Positions 9,123-63,000 of a stretch of 64,000 nt of DNA are shown piece after piece. Within the stretch, counting starts at the first letter, position 1; each line of letters opens with the position of its first letter. The notes under the pieces were generated by a model. That model had not been told where the DNA came from. It did not search any database and saw only the letters and a list, made by a program, of their open reading frames with translations. Position numbers and translations under genes: made by a program. Where the stretch lies: NCBI GenBank assembly GCA_964355855.1, contig CAYHFD010000001.1, positions 9,921 to 73,920 of the forward strand, written 5' to 3'. The stretch comes from an uncultured Candidatus Saccharibacteria bacterium (GTDB lineage Bacteria > Patescibacteriota > Minisyncoccia > Phycocordibacterales > XYD1-FULL-46-19).

Positions 9123-9614
9123 CTATTTCAAATAACTATCAAACCAGACCGCGTGGCAGGTGTAGCCACCCGGGTTTTTCTGCAGATAATCTTGATGGTG
9201 GGCTTCCGCTGGGTAGAATTTAGTCAACGGCTCCAAAGTGGTCACCACCGGCCCCGACCAGCGACCAGACTTGTTGACGATATCAATAAATTTTTCGGCT
9301 TCACTTTTTTCTTCATCACTCCCATAAAATATCGCCGAGCGGTAGGAACTGCCTTTATCATTTCCCTGTTGATTTAAAGTGGTTGGATTATGCACCCGAA
9401 AAAAGAAGTCGAGTAAGTTTTTATACGAAGTCTGGGTCAGGTCATATTCTATCTCCACTGCTTCAGCGTGGCCGGTGTGGTTTTGATAGGTCGGATTGGC
9501 CACACTACCTCCGGTATAACCTACTTCAGTATTAATAACCCCTGGTTCTTTTCGAATCAGTTCCTCTAGGCCCCAAAAGCAACCACCCGCCAAAACTATT
9601 TTTTTATTATTCAT
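9123..9614 (-). CDS. msrA: peptide methionine sulfoxide reductase A
   Basis: IVLAGGCFWGLEE catalytic motif. Confidence 0.9.
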   Translation of the reverse strand: MNNKKIVLAGGCFWGLEELIRKEPGVINTEVGYTGGSVANPTYQNHTGHAEAVEIEYDLTQTSYKNLLDFFFRVHNPTTLNQQGNDKGSSYRSAIFYGSDEEKSEAEKFIDIVNKSGRWSGPVVTTLEPLTKFYPAEAHHQDYLQKNPGGYTCHAVWFDSYLK

Positions 9615-9638: not shown

Positions 9639-9662
9639 CCTATTCGCGCGAATTAGAGATAT
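9639..9662 (-). repeat. 24-bp motif copy 1 (CCTATTCGCGCGAATTAGAGATAT)
   Basis: Exact copy; supplies last codons and stop of msrB; 26 nt upstream of msrA ATG. Confidence 0.9.
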
Positions 9663-10038
9663 CTTTGACCGAGATATTCTTAGTCACACCCGCTATAAAT
9701 TTCAGCGAAATCGAGTTCACACAATGGCGGATATTTTTGGCGGTTAGATTTTCACCGGTAAACACGTGGCCGAGGTGACCACCACACTTGGCGCAGGTAA
9801 TCTCGGTCCGCCGGCCATCGGCATCAACACTTTTTATTACCGCTCCCGCAATTTCATCATCAAAACTGGGCCAGCCACAATGTGACTCAAATTTATCTTG
9901 CGAATTATAAAGTGGCGCTTCACACTGCCGGCACACATACACCCCCGTGGCTTTATTATTAACATATTCACCCGTAAAAGCCGGCTCAGTGCCTTTATCA
10001 ATGATGACGTGTTTTTCTTGGGAGGTGAGGGGGTGCAT
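9640..10038 (-). CDS. msrB: peptide methionine sulfoxide reductase B (with repeat-derived C-terminal tail)
   Basis: CxxC...CxxC zinc site and HLGHVF / RHCVNS motifs; last 8 codons (DISNSRE-stop) lie inside the 24-bp repeat. Confidence 0.9.
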
Positions 10039-25026: not shown

Positions 25027-25391
25027 TGCTTGGGGGCGGGTTCGAACCGCCGACCCTTCGCTCTTCCAGAGCGTTTGGACTATATCATCATCCGTTCTGC
25101 TAATAAGCAGAGTTAGGAGGCAGGCGCTTCCCCTCAACTACGCTCGGGGTAAACCCTAAGCTAATCAAGAGTACTCCCTTTCGGGATAGTCTCTACACCT
25201 TCCGAGCACCACTTTTGAATTCTAGAATATTCTAAAAACCAAAAGTGGTGCTCGGCTTGGCTCGGGATTGTCCAAAAAATTAATCTTGGGTGTCCCCCGA
25301 ATTCACCTACTTTTTCGATCCACTTTACAATAGAAAGGCCCGAAGTTTTTTAGGGTCCAGGCGAATGCTCTACCAACTGAGCTACCCAAGC
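25027..25391 (-). tRNA. tRNA-Phe (inferred anticodon GAA) interrupted by a ~282-nt group-I-like intron in the anticodon loop
   Basis: 5' exon 25359-25391: GCTTGGGTAGCTCAGTTGGTAGAGCATTCGCCT; 3' exon 25027-25076: GAAGAGCGAAGGGTCGGCGGTTCGAACCCGCCCCCAAGCA; halves form perfect acceptor (GCTTGGG/CCCAAGC), anticodon (TTCGC/GCGAA) and T stems. Confidence 0.75.
25077..25358 (-). ncRNA. group I intron (self-splicing ribozyme candidate) within tRNA-Phe
   Basis: 5' exon ends in U, intron ends in G; contains GAGACTATCCCGAAAGGGAGTACTC (P7/GAAA-tetraloop-like) and GATGATATAGTCC (P7') reminiscent of the Tetrahymena/cyanobacterial cores. Confidence 0.65.
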
Positions 25392-35813: not shown

Positions 35814-35820
35814 CGATATA

Positions 35821-36270
35821 ATTGCCTTTTGTTTATAAGCCGAATTCTGTACCGAGCACCACTTCTGACACCCACATTCTTATTAGAAAACACTAAGTAA
35901 GTGTAAATTGATTTGCTAGTGAAAGTTAGACAGTCAGTAGCAGAAGTGGTGCTCGGCGATAGCCATTTATCTGGGATGACTGTCGCCAGCCACCTCAAGC
36001 GGCACAAACCAGTGCAAAGCACTGGAGTACGACCTTGCATTCGGGTAGGTATTTTGCCGTTTCAATCTTCAGGTTTCCCTGAAGCTTCACCCCAAAGGGT
36101 GCCTTTGCCTCTCGGCTAGGGCGTCACTGCTCTCAACCCTCGGATTGCTCCGGACAGGCGTTACCTGCTACCTTGTTCCACCATCTAAAGATAGTGGGAA
36201 TGTTCGGACTTTCCTCTATCAGCCCGCCCAATCGGGCAAACTGACAGTAGCTATCCAACAAAAGGCAACC
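35821..36270 (-). ncRNA. rnpB: RNase P RNA (bacterial type A-like)
   Basis: Minus-strand: GAGGAAAGUCCGAAC (P4 5' strand), GGUAACGCCUG, GGGUGAAGC, ACAGAAUUCGGCUUAUA (P4 3' strand); P1 GGUUGCCUUUUGUU pairs with AACAAAAGGCAAUU. Confidence 0.8.
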
Positions 36271-60093: not shown

Positions 60094-60933
60094 CTAAAGA
60101 ACAGAAACCGGTAGATGCAAGATAGCGGCCCCAGTTTCCAAATACCAACCCAAGTTGGTCGTCGTGTGACTAGAGACCAGATACCCATGGCGCGCCACAT
60201 ATTCACCCATGACTAGATACTGGGCTGAAGTCCGCGCCGAGCGTTCCATCAGTTCACTAAAAGAAGCCTGGGGACAAATTCGCTCATACATCCGTAAGCG
60301 CGCTACGGTCTCGCCGACTATCCGGCTGAAATATTGCCCGTCGCTCATCAGCTTAGCCGTAAGCTGCTCTTCGGTCTCGACTAAATTCGGTATCTCGTCA
60401 GTCATCAAGCGCACTTGCCAGCCCCGACTCGCTACTTTAGCCCTGGTCGCCGCCACTGAAGCTTCAACACAAGCCAGCAGTTCCTCCCGACTACGACCGA
60501 CGGCTCGGCTAAGCACTGGGTCATCGGCCTCCTGGTTAGGCATCAGGATTCGCACTTCCGCTTGGGGTAAAACCCTGGTCAGCCGCTCTAGGAATCTAAT
60601 CTGACGTTCGCCCAAGAGTGACACCCCGGTCCCCACCGAGCGAAAGTCATAGGCCCCGTCCCGGTGGCTATAATCCAGGCAAGATGGGGCAATAATCACC
60701 GGCTGTTCATTGGTTCTGGCAATCACCAGCCCAATGCGATCACCCATCACTTTGGTTCGGGAAGCATAGCCGCACACACCGATTGTTCGGCACACCCGCC
60801 GCACTTTTTCCATTCTCAACCGCTTGTGTTGCTCTCCCCATAAGCCTGCCTCACCATTGAGGTACTTCCTCGTCCGTGGCAAGCGCAGGCGGGGTACTGC
60901 CATTTCTTCCATCATTTCCACCACTGTTTGCAT
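60094..60933 (-). CDS. hypothetical protein (high-GC, foreign-looking)
   Basis: AGGAG 8 nt before ATG at 60933 (longer ORF to 61098 probably non-coding); no recognised motif. Confidence 0.35.
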   Translation of the reverse strand: MQTVVEMMEEMAVPRLRLPRTRKYLNGEAGLWGEQHKRLRMEKVRRVCRTIGVCGYASRTKVMGDRIGLVIARTNEQPVIIAPSCLDYSHRDGAYDFRSVGTGVSLLGERQIRFLERLTRVLPQAEVRILMPNQEADDPVLSRAVGRSREELLACVEASVAATRAKVASRGWQVRLMTDEIPNLVETEEQLTAKLMSDGQYFSRIVGETVARLRMYERICPQASFSELMERSARTSAQYLVMGEYVARHGYLVSSHTTTNLGWYLETGAAILHLPVSVL

Positions 60934-61269
60934 TTCACATCTCCTGGTTGGTAAAGATCCACTCAACAAAAAACTCCTCGTCGCCAGGCAGGAAAAAACC
61001 TGCCCAGGGACGAGGAGTCTTGAAAAAAACCCAAGCTCGTGGTGCCACCCTAGTTTTGGAACCAAAAAAACACCGTGGAGGTGCTCTTTTAGTTCCACTC
61101 ATCGGCGCGTACATCCCAGAGGGACAGATACCGATTATCCCATGGTTACGGAGGAGTGCCGAGCTGTCACTTGCGCAACAGCCATCCTGCCCAAACGGGC
61201 GATCGCGGCCCAACCCTCGGCTTACAGCCGAGGACCACGATCAAGGATTTTGTCTCTTGTTGAAGTACT

Positions 61270-61300
61270 AAGCTTAGTCTACCAACGCTACCCCCGCTGT
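61270..61300 (-). promoter_or_regulatory. sigma70-like promoter (TTGACA-16-TAGACT) upstream of 60094-60933 gene
   Basis: Minus-strand TTGACAGCGGGGGTAGCGTTGGTAGACT. Confidence 0.4.
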
Positions 61301-61349
61301 CAACCACCACCTTTTCTTTTTCCCTTTTTATTTCTATTTTTTCTATTCC

Positions 61350-61373
61350 CCTATTCGCGCGAATTAGAGATAT
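61350..61373 (-). repeat. 24-bp motif copy 2
   Basis: Exact copy; supplies last codons and stop of ArsR-like gene. Confidence 0.9.
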
Positions 61374-61635
61374 GTTTAGAAACGTATTGAACAATAGGAT
61401 GACGATCCGGCGACAGCGAATACCACATTTCCAAACCCCGCTGCTTTTTTTCCACAATATCAGCCCCGTAAAGCACTGCCAAATGTTTAGAGGTGGCTTT
61501 GAAAGACAAGTTGATTTTTTCGGCCAACTCACTTACTGTCGCCTCTTTTTCTCGCCCTAAATATTTGATCAGCGCCAGCCGCCGCCCATTGGCCAGTGCT
61601 TTCAACACCCGCTCTAACTCCTTAATATTTTTCAT
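61351..61635 (-). CDS. ArsR/SmtB-family transcriptional regulator (C-terminus supplied by 24-bp repeat)
   Basis: RRLALIKYL...ATVSELAEKINLSFKATSKHLAVLYGADIV winged HTH; ends HISNSRE-stop inside repeat. Confidence 0.8.
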   Translation of the reverse strand: MKNIKELERVLKALANGRRLALIKYLGREKEATVSELAEKINLSFKATSKHLAVLYGADIVEKKQRGLEMWYSLSPDRHPIVQYVSKHISNSRE

Positions 61636-61657
61636 CTTCCCATTTTACCACCCTTGC

Positions 61658-61681
61658 CCTATTCGCGCGAATTAGAGATAT
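61658..61681 (-). repeat. 24-bp motif copy 3
   Basis: Exact copy; between racemase stop and ArsR-like ATG (about 25 nt upstream of ATG). Confidence 0.9.
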
Positions 61682-61692
61682 ATTCTACGCTT

Positions 61693-62397
61693 TTAGGTTT
61701 TATTTTCCAGAGCTAAAGCCAAGGCCTTGTCCACTATCACTTGATTAGAGTTTATTAATGGTACCGCTAAAGCCATGGCCCCGAGCGCCAGTGGCAACTC
61801 TGTACAACCAAGAATAATCACCTCGGCCCCGGCCTGCACCAAGCTAGCCACAATTTCTTGAATCAGCTGAGTATCGGCCCCATCATTTTTTCCAGCCATA
61901 ACTTTCAAAATAATCCCATCTAACTTAGCCTGTTCGGCCACGGTCACAACTAGAGGCTCGATACCGGCTTTCACCAGCTTGTCCGTATAAAGATTATACT
62001 TGGCACTACTGGCTGAGGTTAGGAGTCCCGCCCGAGTGTAGCCCCCAGTCTTCGCCATCTGCACTGTCTCATCGACAATACTCAAAATCGGAATATTGAG
62101 TCCGGCCTGCATTTCGTCTTGATAGATATGTACCGTATTGCAAGCGATCACAACAAAATCACACTTGGCCGATTCTAGTCTTTTGACCCCAGATACCAGT
62201 TGCCTCTTGACGGCTTCAGCCTCCACAATCCCCCGCTCGTCAAAACCCTCGAGCGGTAGATTGTAAATAATTATCGGCGGAAACTCATTGTCTTGCACCG
62301 CCCCATATTTATTATGAGCCAGATCGATAATTAGATTGTAGAAATAAGCACTTGCCTCCGGGCCCATACCACCCAAAATACCAATTGTTTTCTTCAT
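61693..62397 (-). CDS. aspartate/glutamate racemase family protein
   Basis: IGILGGMGPEAS, VIACNTVH, IILGCTELP two-Cys racemase motifs. Confidence 0.85.
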   Translation of the reverse strand: MKKTIGILGGMGPEASAYFYNLIIDLAHNKYGAVQDNEFPPIIIYNLPLEGFDERGIVEAEAVKRQLVSGVKRLESAKCDFVVIACNTVHIYQDEMQAGLNIPILSIVDETVQMAKTGGYTRAGLLTSASSAKYNLYTDKLVKAGIEPLVVTVAEQAKLDGIILKVMAGKNDGADTQLIQEIVASLVQAGAEVIILGCTELPLALGAMALAVPLINSNQVIVDKALALALENKT

Positions 62398-62602
62398 AAA
62401 TATTTTCTTAAACCAATAAAAAACGGCCCCCTTGAGGCCGCTTTAGAACATTTGTGACGAGTGGGACAAACAGGTTTACAAATACTCAAAACCGACCTCA
62501 AAGAGGCTCTCCCGACGACGGTTATTGGTATTTATAGACAGTAGTCTCTGCATATATTTATCCTAGCAATTAATCACAATAAGTCCAGTCCGTCTTACTT
62601 TT

Positions 62603-62905
62603 CTATACCCCACAGGCCTCTTCGACATAGGCCACCAGCTGGTCCTTGTCATCAATAATTTCCGGCGGTACCTCCAGATAATTTTTCAAAACTTGGTCCT
62701 GGCTTGGGGTAAACGGGCCCATCCCCACCGCCTGATATTTTTTAGCCGTCTCGGGATTAGTTTTTAAATATAAAACGCCTTCATTCACGATGCCAAAAAA
62801 GGTCTCACCCAAATACAAACCATAAGAAGAAAATATCTTCTTAATCCGGACCTCCCCCAATTCCCCCACCTGATCCGCCACATATTCTGCGAAGCTAGTA
62901 TCCAT
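62603..62905 (-). CDS. TfoX N-terminal-domain protein
   Basis: IKKIFSSYGLYLGETFFGIVNEGVLYLKT and VPPEIIDDKDQLVAYVEEA match TfoX_N pattern. Confidence 0.65.
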   Translation of the reverse strand: MDTSFAEYVADQVGELGEVRIKKIFSSYGLYLGETFFGIVNEGVLYLKTNPETAKKYQAVGMGPFTPSQDQVLKNYLEVPPEIIDDKDQLVAYVEEACGV

Positions 62906-62976
62906 GTTTTTATTTTACCCCAGCTTAGCCCTTATCTAAAACCCCACAAAAATATTTTCACTATTAGCTTTATTCT

Positions 62977-63000
62977 CCTATTCGCGCGAATTAGAGATAT
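62977..63000 (-). repeat. 24-bp motif copy 4
   Basis: Exact copy with same 7-nt extension as copy 1; ~70 nt upstream of TfoX_N gene ATG. Confidence 0.9.

What the first reader, a model, noticed from the sequence alone, without database searches (positions are those of the whole stretch)
61350..61681. ArsR-like regulator gene flanked on both sides by the 24-bp motif
Copies 2 and 3 bracket the 94-aa ArsR/SmtB-type gene. One copy lies about 25 nt upstream of its ATG, and one overlaps its stop. This is the arrangement expected for an autoregulated repressor whose operator also controls the downstream gene, so it is the most direct hint at what binds the motif.
Basis: inference. Interest (0 to 1): 0.5.

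Follow-up and report, generated by a model that had tools for sequence, protein, structure and literature searches.

The report
ArsR-like repressor bracketed by its operators
A small ArsR-family DNA-binding protein of a groundwater Patescibacteria (CPR) bacterium carries its probable binding site, a 12-bp palindrome, on both sides of its own gene. The protein shows no metal-sensing site, and the second copy seems tied to the regulator gene itself, not just to the next gene.

Summary
Four exact, same-strand copies of CCTATTCGCGCGAATTAGAGATAT occur in 64 kb, against none expected. Two of them bracket a 94-aa ArsR/SmtB-fold gene on the minus strand (61635..61351). One ends 22 nt before the ATG and the other contains the TAG stop.

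Comparative data support the regulator-operator assignment:
- Among 80 species-level Patescibacteria orthologues (51-74% identity), 79 have the core ATTCG-NN-CGAAT upstream of the gene, 74 have it at or just after the stop, and 73 have both.
- A 27%-identical paralogue is bracketed in the same way by its own palindrome, ATTCTTAAGAAT.
- The motif supplies the regulator's stop codon in two alternative frames (tail ISNS[L/R]E* or ..SLL*), with invariant synonymous codons.

The upstream copy overlaps a leaderless extended -10 promoter, so autorepression is the likely mechanism.

- The protein has no Cys and no alpha5 metal site.
- Targets number about 9 sites per genome and are diverse and unconserved.
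- The 3' copy persists even where the next gene is convergent. In this window it lies about 90 nt upstream of the next promoter's predicted start.

No binding experiment exists. I rate this a new variant of a known kind, of moderate interest.

The parts
61658..61681 (-). Motif copy 3, the 5' operator of the ArsR-like gene. Core palindrome at 61661-61672, with its centre 31.5 nt upstream of the ATG.
   Evidence: Exact 24-mer. PWM 36.6 bits on the minus strand. 79 of 80 orthologues carry a core within 200 nt upstream of the start.
61642..61650 (-). Predicted extended -10 element TGGTAAAAT. The TAAAAT hexamer sits at -12..-7 from the A of the ATG, which implies a leaderless mRNA. The operator core then covers roughly -37..-26.
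   Evidence: Read from the sequence. TAnnnT starts at exactly -12 in 31 of 80 orthologues, and SD-like words are almost absent. This is inference, not a mapped TSS.
61682..61709 (-). Alternative sigma-70-like promoter TGGAAA-16-TAGAAT immediately upstream of copy 3. It would place the operator at about +1..+25.
   Evidence: Consensus scan only.
61351..61635 (-). ArsR/SmtB-fold regulator, 94 aa, no cysteine. The last 6 codons and the stop are written in motif copy 2.
   Evidence: Pfam and NCBIfam hits. AF2 pLDDT 92.7. Foldseek TM 0.76-0.82 to HlyU, CzrA, NolR, SqrR and PagR. 284 homologues, the named ones from Patescibacteria/Parcubacteria.
61350..61373 (-). Motif copy 2, the 3' operator. Core at 61353-61364, starting 11 nt before the stop codon. 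It encodes ISNSRE*.
   Evidence: Exact 24-mer. PWM 45.9 bits. The same -11 register occurs in 22 orthologues and a +2 register in 19.
62977..63000 (-). Motif copy 4, in the divergent intergenic region. Its centre is 80.5 nt upstream of TfoX_N (62905..62603, minus strand) and about 60 nt upstream of an NTP-transferase gene (63046, plus strand).
9639..9662 (-). Motif copy 1. It contains the stop of msrB (10038..9640, tail ..KDISNSRE*) and ends 24 nt before the ATG of msrA (9614..9123).
61693..62905 (-). TfoX_N gene (62603-62905) and Asp/Glu-type racemase gene (61693-62397). Together they form the unit lying between copies 4 and 3.
   Evidence: Pfam and NCBIfam. A terminator-like hairpin at 62444..62420 lies between the two genes.
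60955..61303 (-). Next transcription unit after copy 2: promoter TTGACA-16-TAGACT (61303..61276), then a structured T-box-like leader, then a terminator hairpin (61025..60966).
   Evidence: The Rfam score is only 28 bits against a gathering threshold of 93.
60094..60936 (-). 280-aa ORF behind the T-box-like leader. Predicted fold resembles the TyrRS/TrpRS catalytic domain and cyclodipeptide synthases. The family has no name.

Best explanation
The motif is the operator of the 94-aa ArsR/SmtB-fold protein. Its core is the palindrome ATTCG-CG-CGAAT, flanked by weaker outer ATTC/GAAT elements at 8-bp spacing.

Proposed mechanism:
- The protein, presumably a homodimer and possibly two dimers per site, binds the copy upstream of its own gene. 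There the core lies over the -35 and spacer region of a leaderless extended -10 promoter, so binding would block RNA polymerase. This is negative autoregulation.
- The same protein binds roughly nine sites per genome, placed in front of a changeable set of genes. In this window those are msrA and the TfoX_N-racemase unit, and possibly the divergent NTP-transferase gene.
- A second operator always sits on or just after the regulator's stop codon. It probably serves the regulator gene itself. It could act as a cooperating or looping auxiliary operator, or as a protein roadblock that ends or insulates the transcript. Where a co-directional gene follows closely, it could also act as that gene's operator.

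Shown: the sequence facts, the cross-species conservation and the protein fold. Inferred: binding, repression, oligomeric state, and the role of the 3' copy. The inducing signal is unknown, and no metal site is present.
For: - Specificity: four exact copies against 0 expected. The sites are very information-rich and all oriented the same way.
- Cross-species arrangement: in 80 species-level loci the exact core occurs 214 times against 0-6 in shuffles. It lies upstream of the regulator in 79 of 80, at or after its stop in 74 of 80, and in both places in 73 of 80.
- Local clustering: site density falls from about 2 per 10 kb within 1 kb of the regulator to about 0.1 per 10 kb beyond 4 kb.
- Paralogue test: a 27%-identical paralogue with a different recognition helix is flanked by its own palindrome ATTCTTAAGAAT. 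That palindrome occurs upstream of its ATG, over its TAA stop, and again 45 nt downstream, in two genomes.
- Invariant partners: the recognition helix LSFKATSKHL is essentially invariant, matching the invariant core.
- DNA-level constraint: the tail codons are TCT 20/20, AAT 20/20, TCG 20/20 and GAA 20/20, although those Ser codons make up only 14-19% of Ser codons elsewhere in the same genes. The same DNA is read in a second frame in 19 species and lies in non-coding sequence at copies 3 and 4.
- Promoter overlap: TAnnnT starts at -12 of the ATG in 31 of 80 orthologues. In 11 loci the core centre is at -20.5 and the outer GAAT is part of a TAGAAT -10 hexamer.
- Trans-acting factor, not a hairpin: the flanking arms are more alike within a genome than between genomes (13.9 against 11.1 of 20 positions). 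Complementarity between the two arms of one site (5.47 of 10) is barely above that between arms of different sites in the same genome (5.09).
- Fold: AF2 pLDDT 92.7, with TM about 0.8 to HlyU, CzrA and NolR.
Against: - No experiment shows binding. All the support is by association, and the 80 loci were selected for carrying the regulator.
- In a motif-first sample only 22% of sites lie next to the regulator. This fits a regulon, but it does not prove which protein binds.
- Targets are not conserved between species and include housekeeping genes, so no physiological signal can be inferred.
- The protein has no recognisable sensor site.
- In this window copy 2 is about 90 nt upstream of the next predicted TSS, and copy 4 is about 80 nt from the TfoX_N start. 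Simple occlusion is plausible only at copy 3 and perhaps at copy 1.
- The helical phasing of the two flanking sites is weak (Rayleigh p about 0.005, not corrected for the four periods tried) and is confounded by promoter geometry.
- Repressor versus activator is not decided.
Confidence: 0.72

Rival explanations
1. A different trans-acting protein (another transcription factor or a sigma-associated factor) binds the palindrome. The ArsR-like gene would then be just the most constant member of that protein's regulon.
For: 78% of sites in the motif-first sample are not next to the ArsR gene. Targets are diverse. There is no binding data.
Against: 79 of 80 and 74 of 80 loci show adjacency on both sides of the gene. 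A paralogue with another recognition helix carries another palindrome in the same layout, which is hard to explain if a third protein were the binder. No other regulator gene recurred in the eight gene tables inspected. Neighbours in the other loci were not checked for one.
Confidence: 0.12
2. The motif is a recombination or mobile-element site, for example a recombinase core site bounding exchangeable gene units. On this view the ArsR gene is a cassette between two direct repeats.
For: The copies are exact direct repeats, with 31 nt identical between copies 1 and 4. The units between copies differ between two syntenic genomes: TfoX_N lies upstream of the ArsR gene here but downstream of it in L011/L012. 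The ArsR tail looks like a partial motif duplication (GTTTCTAA|ACATATCTCTAA).
Against: No recombinase or transposase gene appears in the eight gene tables inspected. Neighbours in the other loci were not checked for one. No terminal repeats or target duplications were noted where flanks were read by eye. The central region is 2-4 bp, shorter than the 6-8 bp spacers of tyrosine-recombinase sites. The position relative to -10 boxes and start codons is fixed. The paralogue-specific core fits a DNA-binding regulator better.
Confidence: 0.05
3. The palindrome acts in RNA, or as a DNA cruciform, as a terminator or processing hairpin at gene ends.
For: It overlaps stop codons of the ArsR gene and msrB. 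Some lineages have 30-42 nt perfect palindromes.
Against: The RNA hairpin is weak, at -5.8 to -7.9 kcal/mol with z-scores of +0.6 to -1.3, no better than shuffles. No U-tract follows it. There is no site-specific compensatory variation. At leaderless promoters it lies upstream of the transcript start. Copies 3 and 4 are not at gene ends.
Confidence: 0.04
4. What is selected is the C-terminal peptide ISNS[L/R]E (for example a degradation or interaction tag), and the DNA palindrome is a by-product.
For: The tail is conserved in many orthologues and recurs on MsrB in this genome.
Against: Synonymous positions are invariant. 19 orthologues read the same DNA in another frame and end ..SLL*. The same DNA lies in non-coding sequence at copies 3 and 4. 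The last four residues (91-94) are coil in the model and the final block has low confidence.
Confidence: 0.02

Closest known systems
Non-metal-sensing members of the ArsR/SmtB family (HlyU, NolR, PagR, SdpR-type autorepressors)
   Same: About 95-aa winged-helix fold in the order a1-a2-a3-aR-wing-a5. Best PDB sequence hits are HlyU at E 5e-13, then Lmo1102 and NolR. Foldseek TM is 0.76-0.82. Neither metal site is present. A palindromic site sits at its own promoter.
   Different: No equivalog model is passed. The family appears, from the named hits, to belong to Patescibacteria. The operator sequence is not found in the searchable literature. There is a second operator on the gene's own stop codon. 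It has no Cys, so it lacks the thiol switch proposed for HlyU, BigR and SqrR.
SmtB/CzrA-type metalloregulators with 12-2-12 inverted-repeat operators
   Same: Same fold. An inverted repeat overlaps the promoter of the regulator's own transcription unit. Extended sites could accommodate two dimers. These operator properties are from general knowledge.
   Different: The a3N (CxC) and a5 (Asp/His) ligand sets are absent. Targets are not metal efflux or sequestration genes. The half-site orientation is ATTC..GAAT with 8-bp spacing.
Auxiliary-operator systems (lac O1/O2, gal OE/OI, deo)
   Same: A second operator lies a few hundred bp downstream, within or after the coding sequence. Here the spacing is 276-468 bp, with a median of 322 and 308 in this window.
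   Different: Here the auxiliary site brackets the regulator's own gene and carries its stop codon. Looping or tetramerisation is not known for ArsR-family proteins and was not testable.
T-box leaders (Rfam RF00230), for the unit downstream of copy 2
   Same: T-box sequence AGGGUGGCACCACG, with competing antiterminator and terminator structures followed by a U-tract.
   Different: The score is 28 bits against a gathering threshold of 93. The stem I region is atypical. The regulated gene is an unnamed protein with an aaRS/CDPS-like fold, not a known aaRS, biosynthetic or transporter gene.

Membership tests
ArsR/SmtB family transcription factors | Sequence matches the family models above their curated cut-offs | tested here: met
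   Pfam HTH_5 38.6 bits against a cut-off of 22. NCBIfam NF033788 69.9 bits against 55.
ArsR/SmtB family transcription factors | Winged-helix fold in the order a1-a2-a3-aR-b1-b2-a5 | tested here: met
   AF2 pLDDT 92.7, with helices at 2-14, 17-29, 34-41, 45-57 and 80-90 and a hairpin at 61-74. TM 0.76-0.82 to HlyU, CzrA, NolR and SqrR.
ArsR/SmtB family transcription factors | Metal- or metalloid-sensing ligand set (a3/a3N Cys motif or a5 Asp/His/Glu site) | tested here: not met
   The 94-aa protein has no Cys. No conserved His, Asp or Cys lies outside the recognition helix in 51 aligned homologues. This does not exclude family membership, because HlyU, NolR and PagR also lack these sites. It does argue against the protein being a metalloregulator.
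ArsR/SmtB family transcription factors | Homodimer binding an inverted repeat at its own promoter (autoregulation) | tested here: inconclusive
   A palindrome overlaps the predicted promoter, and this is conserved in 79 of 80 orthologues. Dimerisation and binding cannot be tested with these tools.
ArsR/SmtB family transcription factors | Release from DNA on effector binding or modification | not testable with these tools
   No effector could be predicted.
Repression by DNA looping between primary and auxiliary operators | Two operators 100-600 bp apart, in helical phase, bridged by an oligomeric repressor | tested here: inconclusive
   Spacing is 276-468 bp. Phasing is weak (R 0.27 at 10.5 bp, p about 0.005 uncorrected) and confounded by the preferred promoter offsets of -20.5, -31.5 and -41.5. 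The oligomeric state is unknown.
Intrinsic terminator | Stable GC-rich hairpin followed by a U-tract | tested here: not met
   MFE is -5.8 to -7.9 kcal/mol, not better than shuffles. The hairpin is followed by AGGAGAAUA. The terminator scan does not report the motif.
Mobile or recombination element (MITE, REP, recombinase core site) | Terminal inverted repeats with target duplications, or an associated recombinase, and placement independent of promoters | tested here: not met
   Identity is confined to 24-31 nt. Orientation and distance to starts and -10 boxes are fixed. No recombinase appears in the eight gene tables inspected.
T-box leader (RF00230), downstream unit | Score above the Rfam gathering threshold. 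Stem I with a specifier loop. T-box sequence with alternative antiterminator and terminator. | tested here: inconclusive
   The score is 28 bits against 93, E 2e-4, over the full model length. The 3' half (T-box sequence, antiterminator, terminator) is convincing. Stem I and the specifier were not identified.

The most novel reading that the evidence does not exclude
The ArsR-like protein is a widely conserved, sensor-less global regulator of Parcubacteria-type Patescibacteria. Its gene forms a self-contained autoregulatory cassette.
- One operator lies in its leaderless promoter.
- A second operator is written into its own last codons and stop codon, in either of two reading frames.
- The two cooperate, by looping or by a protein roadblock that terminates or insulates the transcript.
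- The operator-bounded units around the gene are exchanged between genomes, so that new genes are recruited into the regulon by being placed behind a copy of the motif.
Probability: 0.3. Interest if true: 0.7.

Novelty: new variant of a known kind. Interest (0 to 1): 0.55.

Why it matters
Gene regulation in Patescibacteria/CPR bacteria is almost unstudied. These organisms have very few transcription factors and almost none are cultured.

This finding offers a concrete regulator-operator pair that can be tested in vitro. It is conserved across many candidate lineages, including Zambryski-, Giovannoni-, Taylor-, Kaiser-, Lipton-, Nomura- and Uhrbacteria, and has a very information-rich site (at least 36 bits here). 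It therefore gives a direct way to define a regulon in uncultured organisms by DAP-seq on metagenomic DNA.

The layout is also unusual. The regulator's stop codon and C-terminus are encoded by its own operator, in two alternative frames, and the 3' operator is kept even before convergent genes. This is not part of the textbook picture of ArsR-family autoregulation. It raises the question of whether the site acts through looping or as a roadblock terminator.

If binding fails, the finding reduces to a conserved motif of unknown function.

Tried and rejected
- Rfam at gathering thresholds found nothing at the motif. Permissive scans found only the weak T-box-like leader nearby.
- Folding the motif as RNA gave no stable structure, so I rejected the terminator and hairpin idea.
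- I tested whether the long lineage-specific palindromic arms reflect base-pairing. Same-site complementarity is not meaningfully above cross-site complementarity within a genome, so I rejected that.
- I looked for a functional theme in the targets, both near the regulator (91 proteins, 78 Pfam families) and in a motif-first metagenome sample (86 proteins, 45 families). No theme emerged. The most frequent families (DUF167, TspO, NUDIX, NifU_N, TfoX_N, Mur ligases) each occur only 2-4 times. I therefore dropped the metal-resistance reading and any simple oxidative-stress regulon.
- Helical phasing of the two flanking sites gave a weak signal that is confounded by promoter geometry, so I did not use it as evidence for looping.
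- Literature searches found no prior description of a Patescibacteria ArsR operator, of regulons in the candidate phyla radiation, of leaderless promoters in Parcubacteria, or of the core sequence itself.
- My first counts of stop-in-motif loci were wrong (27, 21 and 48). One search corrected them to 22, 19 and 42.
- The crude ORF caller yielded some antisense artefacts among the candidate targets.

Full report
**Observation.** The 24-mer CCTATTCGCGCGAATTAGAGATAT occurs exactly four times in the 64-kb window, at 9639, 61350, 61658 and 62977, all in one orientation. Dinucleotide-preserving shuffles give no match even with three mismatches allowed. Its 12-bp core ATTCGCGCGAAT is a perfect palindrome found nowhere else with up to 1 mismatch. 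Similarity between the copies is confined to 24-31 nt. Copies 2 and 3 bracket a minus-strand ORF, 61635..61351, of 94 aa. This ORF matches Pfam HTH_5 and passes the NCBIfam ArsR/SmtB subfamily cut-off. Copy 3 ends 22 nt before the ATG, and copy 2 contains the TAG stop.

The functional strand is the minus strand. A weight matrix built from orthologous sites scores the four copies at 36.6-45.9 bits on the minus strand and 24-29 bits on the plus strand. The next best position in the window scores 0.4 bits. Read on the minus strand, the motif is ATATCTCTA-ATTCGCGCGAAT-AGG. It encodes ISNSRE* both for the ArsR-like protein and for MsrB at copy 1.

**What organism and protein.** The protein has 284 homologues, and those that carry names are from Patescibacteria/Parcubacteria. 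Near-identical contigs come from Hainich groundwater and show the same arrangement. AlphaFold gives a confident canonical fold (pLDDT 92.7): a1, a2, a3, recognition helix 45-57, wing 61-74, and a short a5 at 80-90. The last residues are of low confidence. The closest solved structures are HlyU, CzrA, NolR, SqrR and PagR, with TM 0.76-0.82 and 24-32% identity. The protein has no cysteine. The 51-sequence alignment shows no conserved metal ligands outside the recognition helix, whose sequence LSFKATSKHL is practically invariant. It belongs to the ArsR/SmtB fold family but shows no sign of being a metalloregulator.

**Comparative test of the regulator-operator assignment.** A scan of one genome per species returned 80 loci with orthologues at 51-74% identity.
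- The exact core ATTCG-NN-CGAAT occurs 214 times in 1.08 Mb, against 0-6 in Markov shuffles.
- Allowing one mismatch, 79 of 80 loci have it within 200 nt upstream of the regulator's start. 74 of 80 have it between -30 and +80 of its stop. 73 of 80 have both.
- Site density is about 2 per 10 kb within 1 kb of the regulator and about 0.1 per 10 kb beyond 4 kb.
- The strongest single argument is a paralogue test. In two genomes (L042, L052) a 27%-identical paralogue has a different recognition helix (NMKTISEHARRL). It is flanked by its own palindrome ATTCTTAAGAAT, which lies just upstream of its ATG, over its TAA stop, and again 45 nt downstream. The architecture is the same, the core differs and the helix differs. 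This is what a cognate regulator-operator pair predicts, and it is hard to reconcile with a third protein being the binder.

**The motif is constrained as DNA, not as peptide.** In 22 orthologues and in this window, the core starts 11 nt before the stop and the protein ends ISNS[L/R]E*. In 19 others the TAA of TCTCTAA is the stop and the protein ends ..SLL*. In total the stop codon lies inside the motif in 42 of 80 species. In 20 genes with the ISNSxE tail, the codons are TCT, AAT, TCG and GAA in 20 of 20 cases. Elsewhere in the same genes TCT and TCG are 14% and 19% of Ser codons. Copies 3 and 4 of the window are non-coding yet identical.

**Promoter context and likely mechanism.**
- Upstream of the orthologues a TAnnnT hexamer starts at exactly -12 from the A of the ATG in 31 of 80 loci, against a background of about 3 per position. 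Shine-Dalgarno-like words are nearly absent. These mRNAs are therefore probably leaderless.
- In 11 loci the core centre is at -20.5, and the outer GAAT element is part of a TGn-TAGAAT extended -10 box.
- In this window the -10 element is TGGTAAAAT (61650..61642) and the core centre is at -31.5, over the -35 and spacer region. The closest orthologue shares this geometry.
- A protein bound there should exclude RNA polymerase, so negative autoregulation is the best reading. An alternative promoter just upstream would put the operator at +1..+25, which is also a repressing position.
- The site consensus is tattCTCTA-ATTCGCGCGAAT-gGtAGAATAg. It has four ATTC/GAAT elements at 8-bp spacing, which suggests more than one dimer per site. 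This is inference.
- The arms are lineage-specific but uniform within a genome, and they show no site-specific compensation. The RNA hairpin is weak. A trans-acting protein therefore explains the palindrome better than base-pairing does.

**What the 3' copy does.** Sometimes it may. In 58 loci a co-directional gene follows, often within tens of nucleotides. However, the 3' copy is also present in 14 of 16 loci where the next called ORF is convergent. Five of those convergent ORFs match Pfam families and so are real genes: a PurF-like amidotransferase, an MFS transporter, an RNase T-type exonuclease, GMP synthase and CTP synthase.

In this window the next unit has its own near-consensus promoter (TTGACA-16-TAGACT, 61303..61276). 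The centre of copy 2 lies about 90 nt upstream of that promoter's predicted start. The constant partner of the 3' operator is therefore the regulator gene itself. I propose an auxiliary operator that cooperates with the 5' site, or a protein roadblock that ends or insulates the leaderless transcript, since no intrinsic terminator follows the gene. The spacing is 276-468 bp (308 bp here). The helical phasing is weak and confounded. This part remains unexplained.

**Regulon.** A motif-first scan of metagenome contigs returned 120 loci with 168 exact cores, and 22% of these cores lie next to a regulator homologue. That implies roughly nine sites per genome. Targets near the regulator and in the motif-first sample are very diverse and not conserved. 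They include DUF167, TspO, NUDIX, NifU_N, TfoX_N, Fic, Mur ligases, Map, YchF, ClpP, topoisomerase I, GltX, RF-1, DinB, TatD and others. In this window the candidate targets are msrA (copy 1), the TfoX_N-racemase unit and perhaps the divergent NTP-transferase gene (copy 4), the regulator itself (copy 3), and doubtfully the T-box-like unit (copy 2). No inducing signal can be inferred. msrA alone is a thin basis for an oxidant response.

**Comparison with known systems and novelty.** The system works like an autoregulated ArsR/SmtB-family repressor and is a member of that fold family. It resembles the non-metal members (HlyU, NolR, PagR, SdpR) more than ArsR, SmtB or CzrA. Several features are not described in the literature I could search, and the core sequence appears in no indexed paper:
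- this Patescibacteria-wide family and its operator;
- the conserved bracketing of the regulator gene;
- the stop codon and C-terminus being written in the operator, in two frames;
- the persistence of the 3' site before convergent genes.

I class it as a new variant of a known kind. I put about 0.72 on the overall explanation: roughly 0.8 that this protein binds the motif, about 0.7 that it represses, and about 0.35 that copy 2 directly controls the next gene here.

Noticed in passing
window 61303..60955 (minus strand): A near-consensus promoter (TTGACA-16-TAGACT) is followed by a highly structured leader (MFE -149 kcal/mol, z -7.6). The leader carries a T-box sequence (AGGGUGGCACCACG; UGGC implies a tRNA with discriminator G), an antiterminator/terminator pair and a U-tract. 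Rfam T-box scores only 28 bits against a gathering threshold of 93, and stem I is atypical.
   Followed up: partly
[not shown]
   Followed up: partly
window 9640..10038 (minus strand) and copy 1 at 9639-9662: MsrB runs 17 codons past its SelR domain and ends ..KDISNSRE*, inside motif copy 1. The motif thus supplies the same six-residue tail and stop codon to two unrelated proteins in one genome. In L009 a rhodanese gene likewise ends inside a copy.
   Followed up: partly
L042 7372-7750 and L052 16978-17357: A distant ArsR paralogue (102 aa, tail ..FSNS*) is bracketed by a 28-bp palindrome, ATTCTCGTATTCTTAAGAATACGAGAAT. It has the same outer arms and ATTC/GAAT half-sites as the main motif, but the centre is TTAA instead of GCGC.
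   Followed up: yes
window 61351-63000 compared with L011/L012 10001-11220: Synteny with the closest species (ArsR 72-74% identical) is conserved downstream (SNase, DUF1653, BipA, DnaA), but the operator-bounded units differ. TfoX_N lies upstream of the ArsR gene here and downstream of it there. PNPOx there is replaced here by the T-box-like unit. The ArsR tail here (..YVS-KHISNSRE) looks like a partial duplication of the motif's 5' arm.
   Followed up: partly
window 25058..25361 (minus strand), exons about 25387-25359 and 25066-25024: A group I intron (Rfam 54.3 bits) interrupts what reads as a tRNA gene in the anticodon loop. By eye the anticodon is probably GAA (Phe) with discriminator A. 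ARAGORN did not call this tRNA.
   Followed up: partly
80 orthologous loci, and window 61642-61650 and 62912-62917: The geometry TAnnnT-N6-ATG, together with the near absence of Shine-Dalgarno words upstream of the regulator genes, suggests leaderless mRNAs in these Patescibacteria. TfoX_N in the window has the same TAAAAT-N6-ATG arrangement.
   Followed up: partly
window 35820..36266 (minus strand): Bacterial RNase P RNA class A, only just above the gathering score (103.4 against 100).
   Followed up: no
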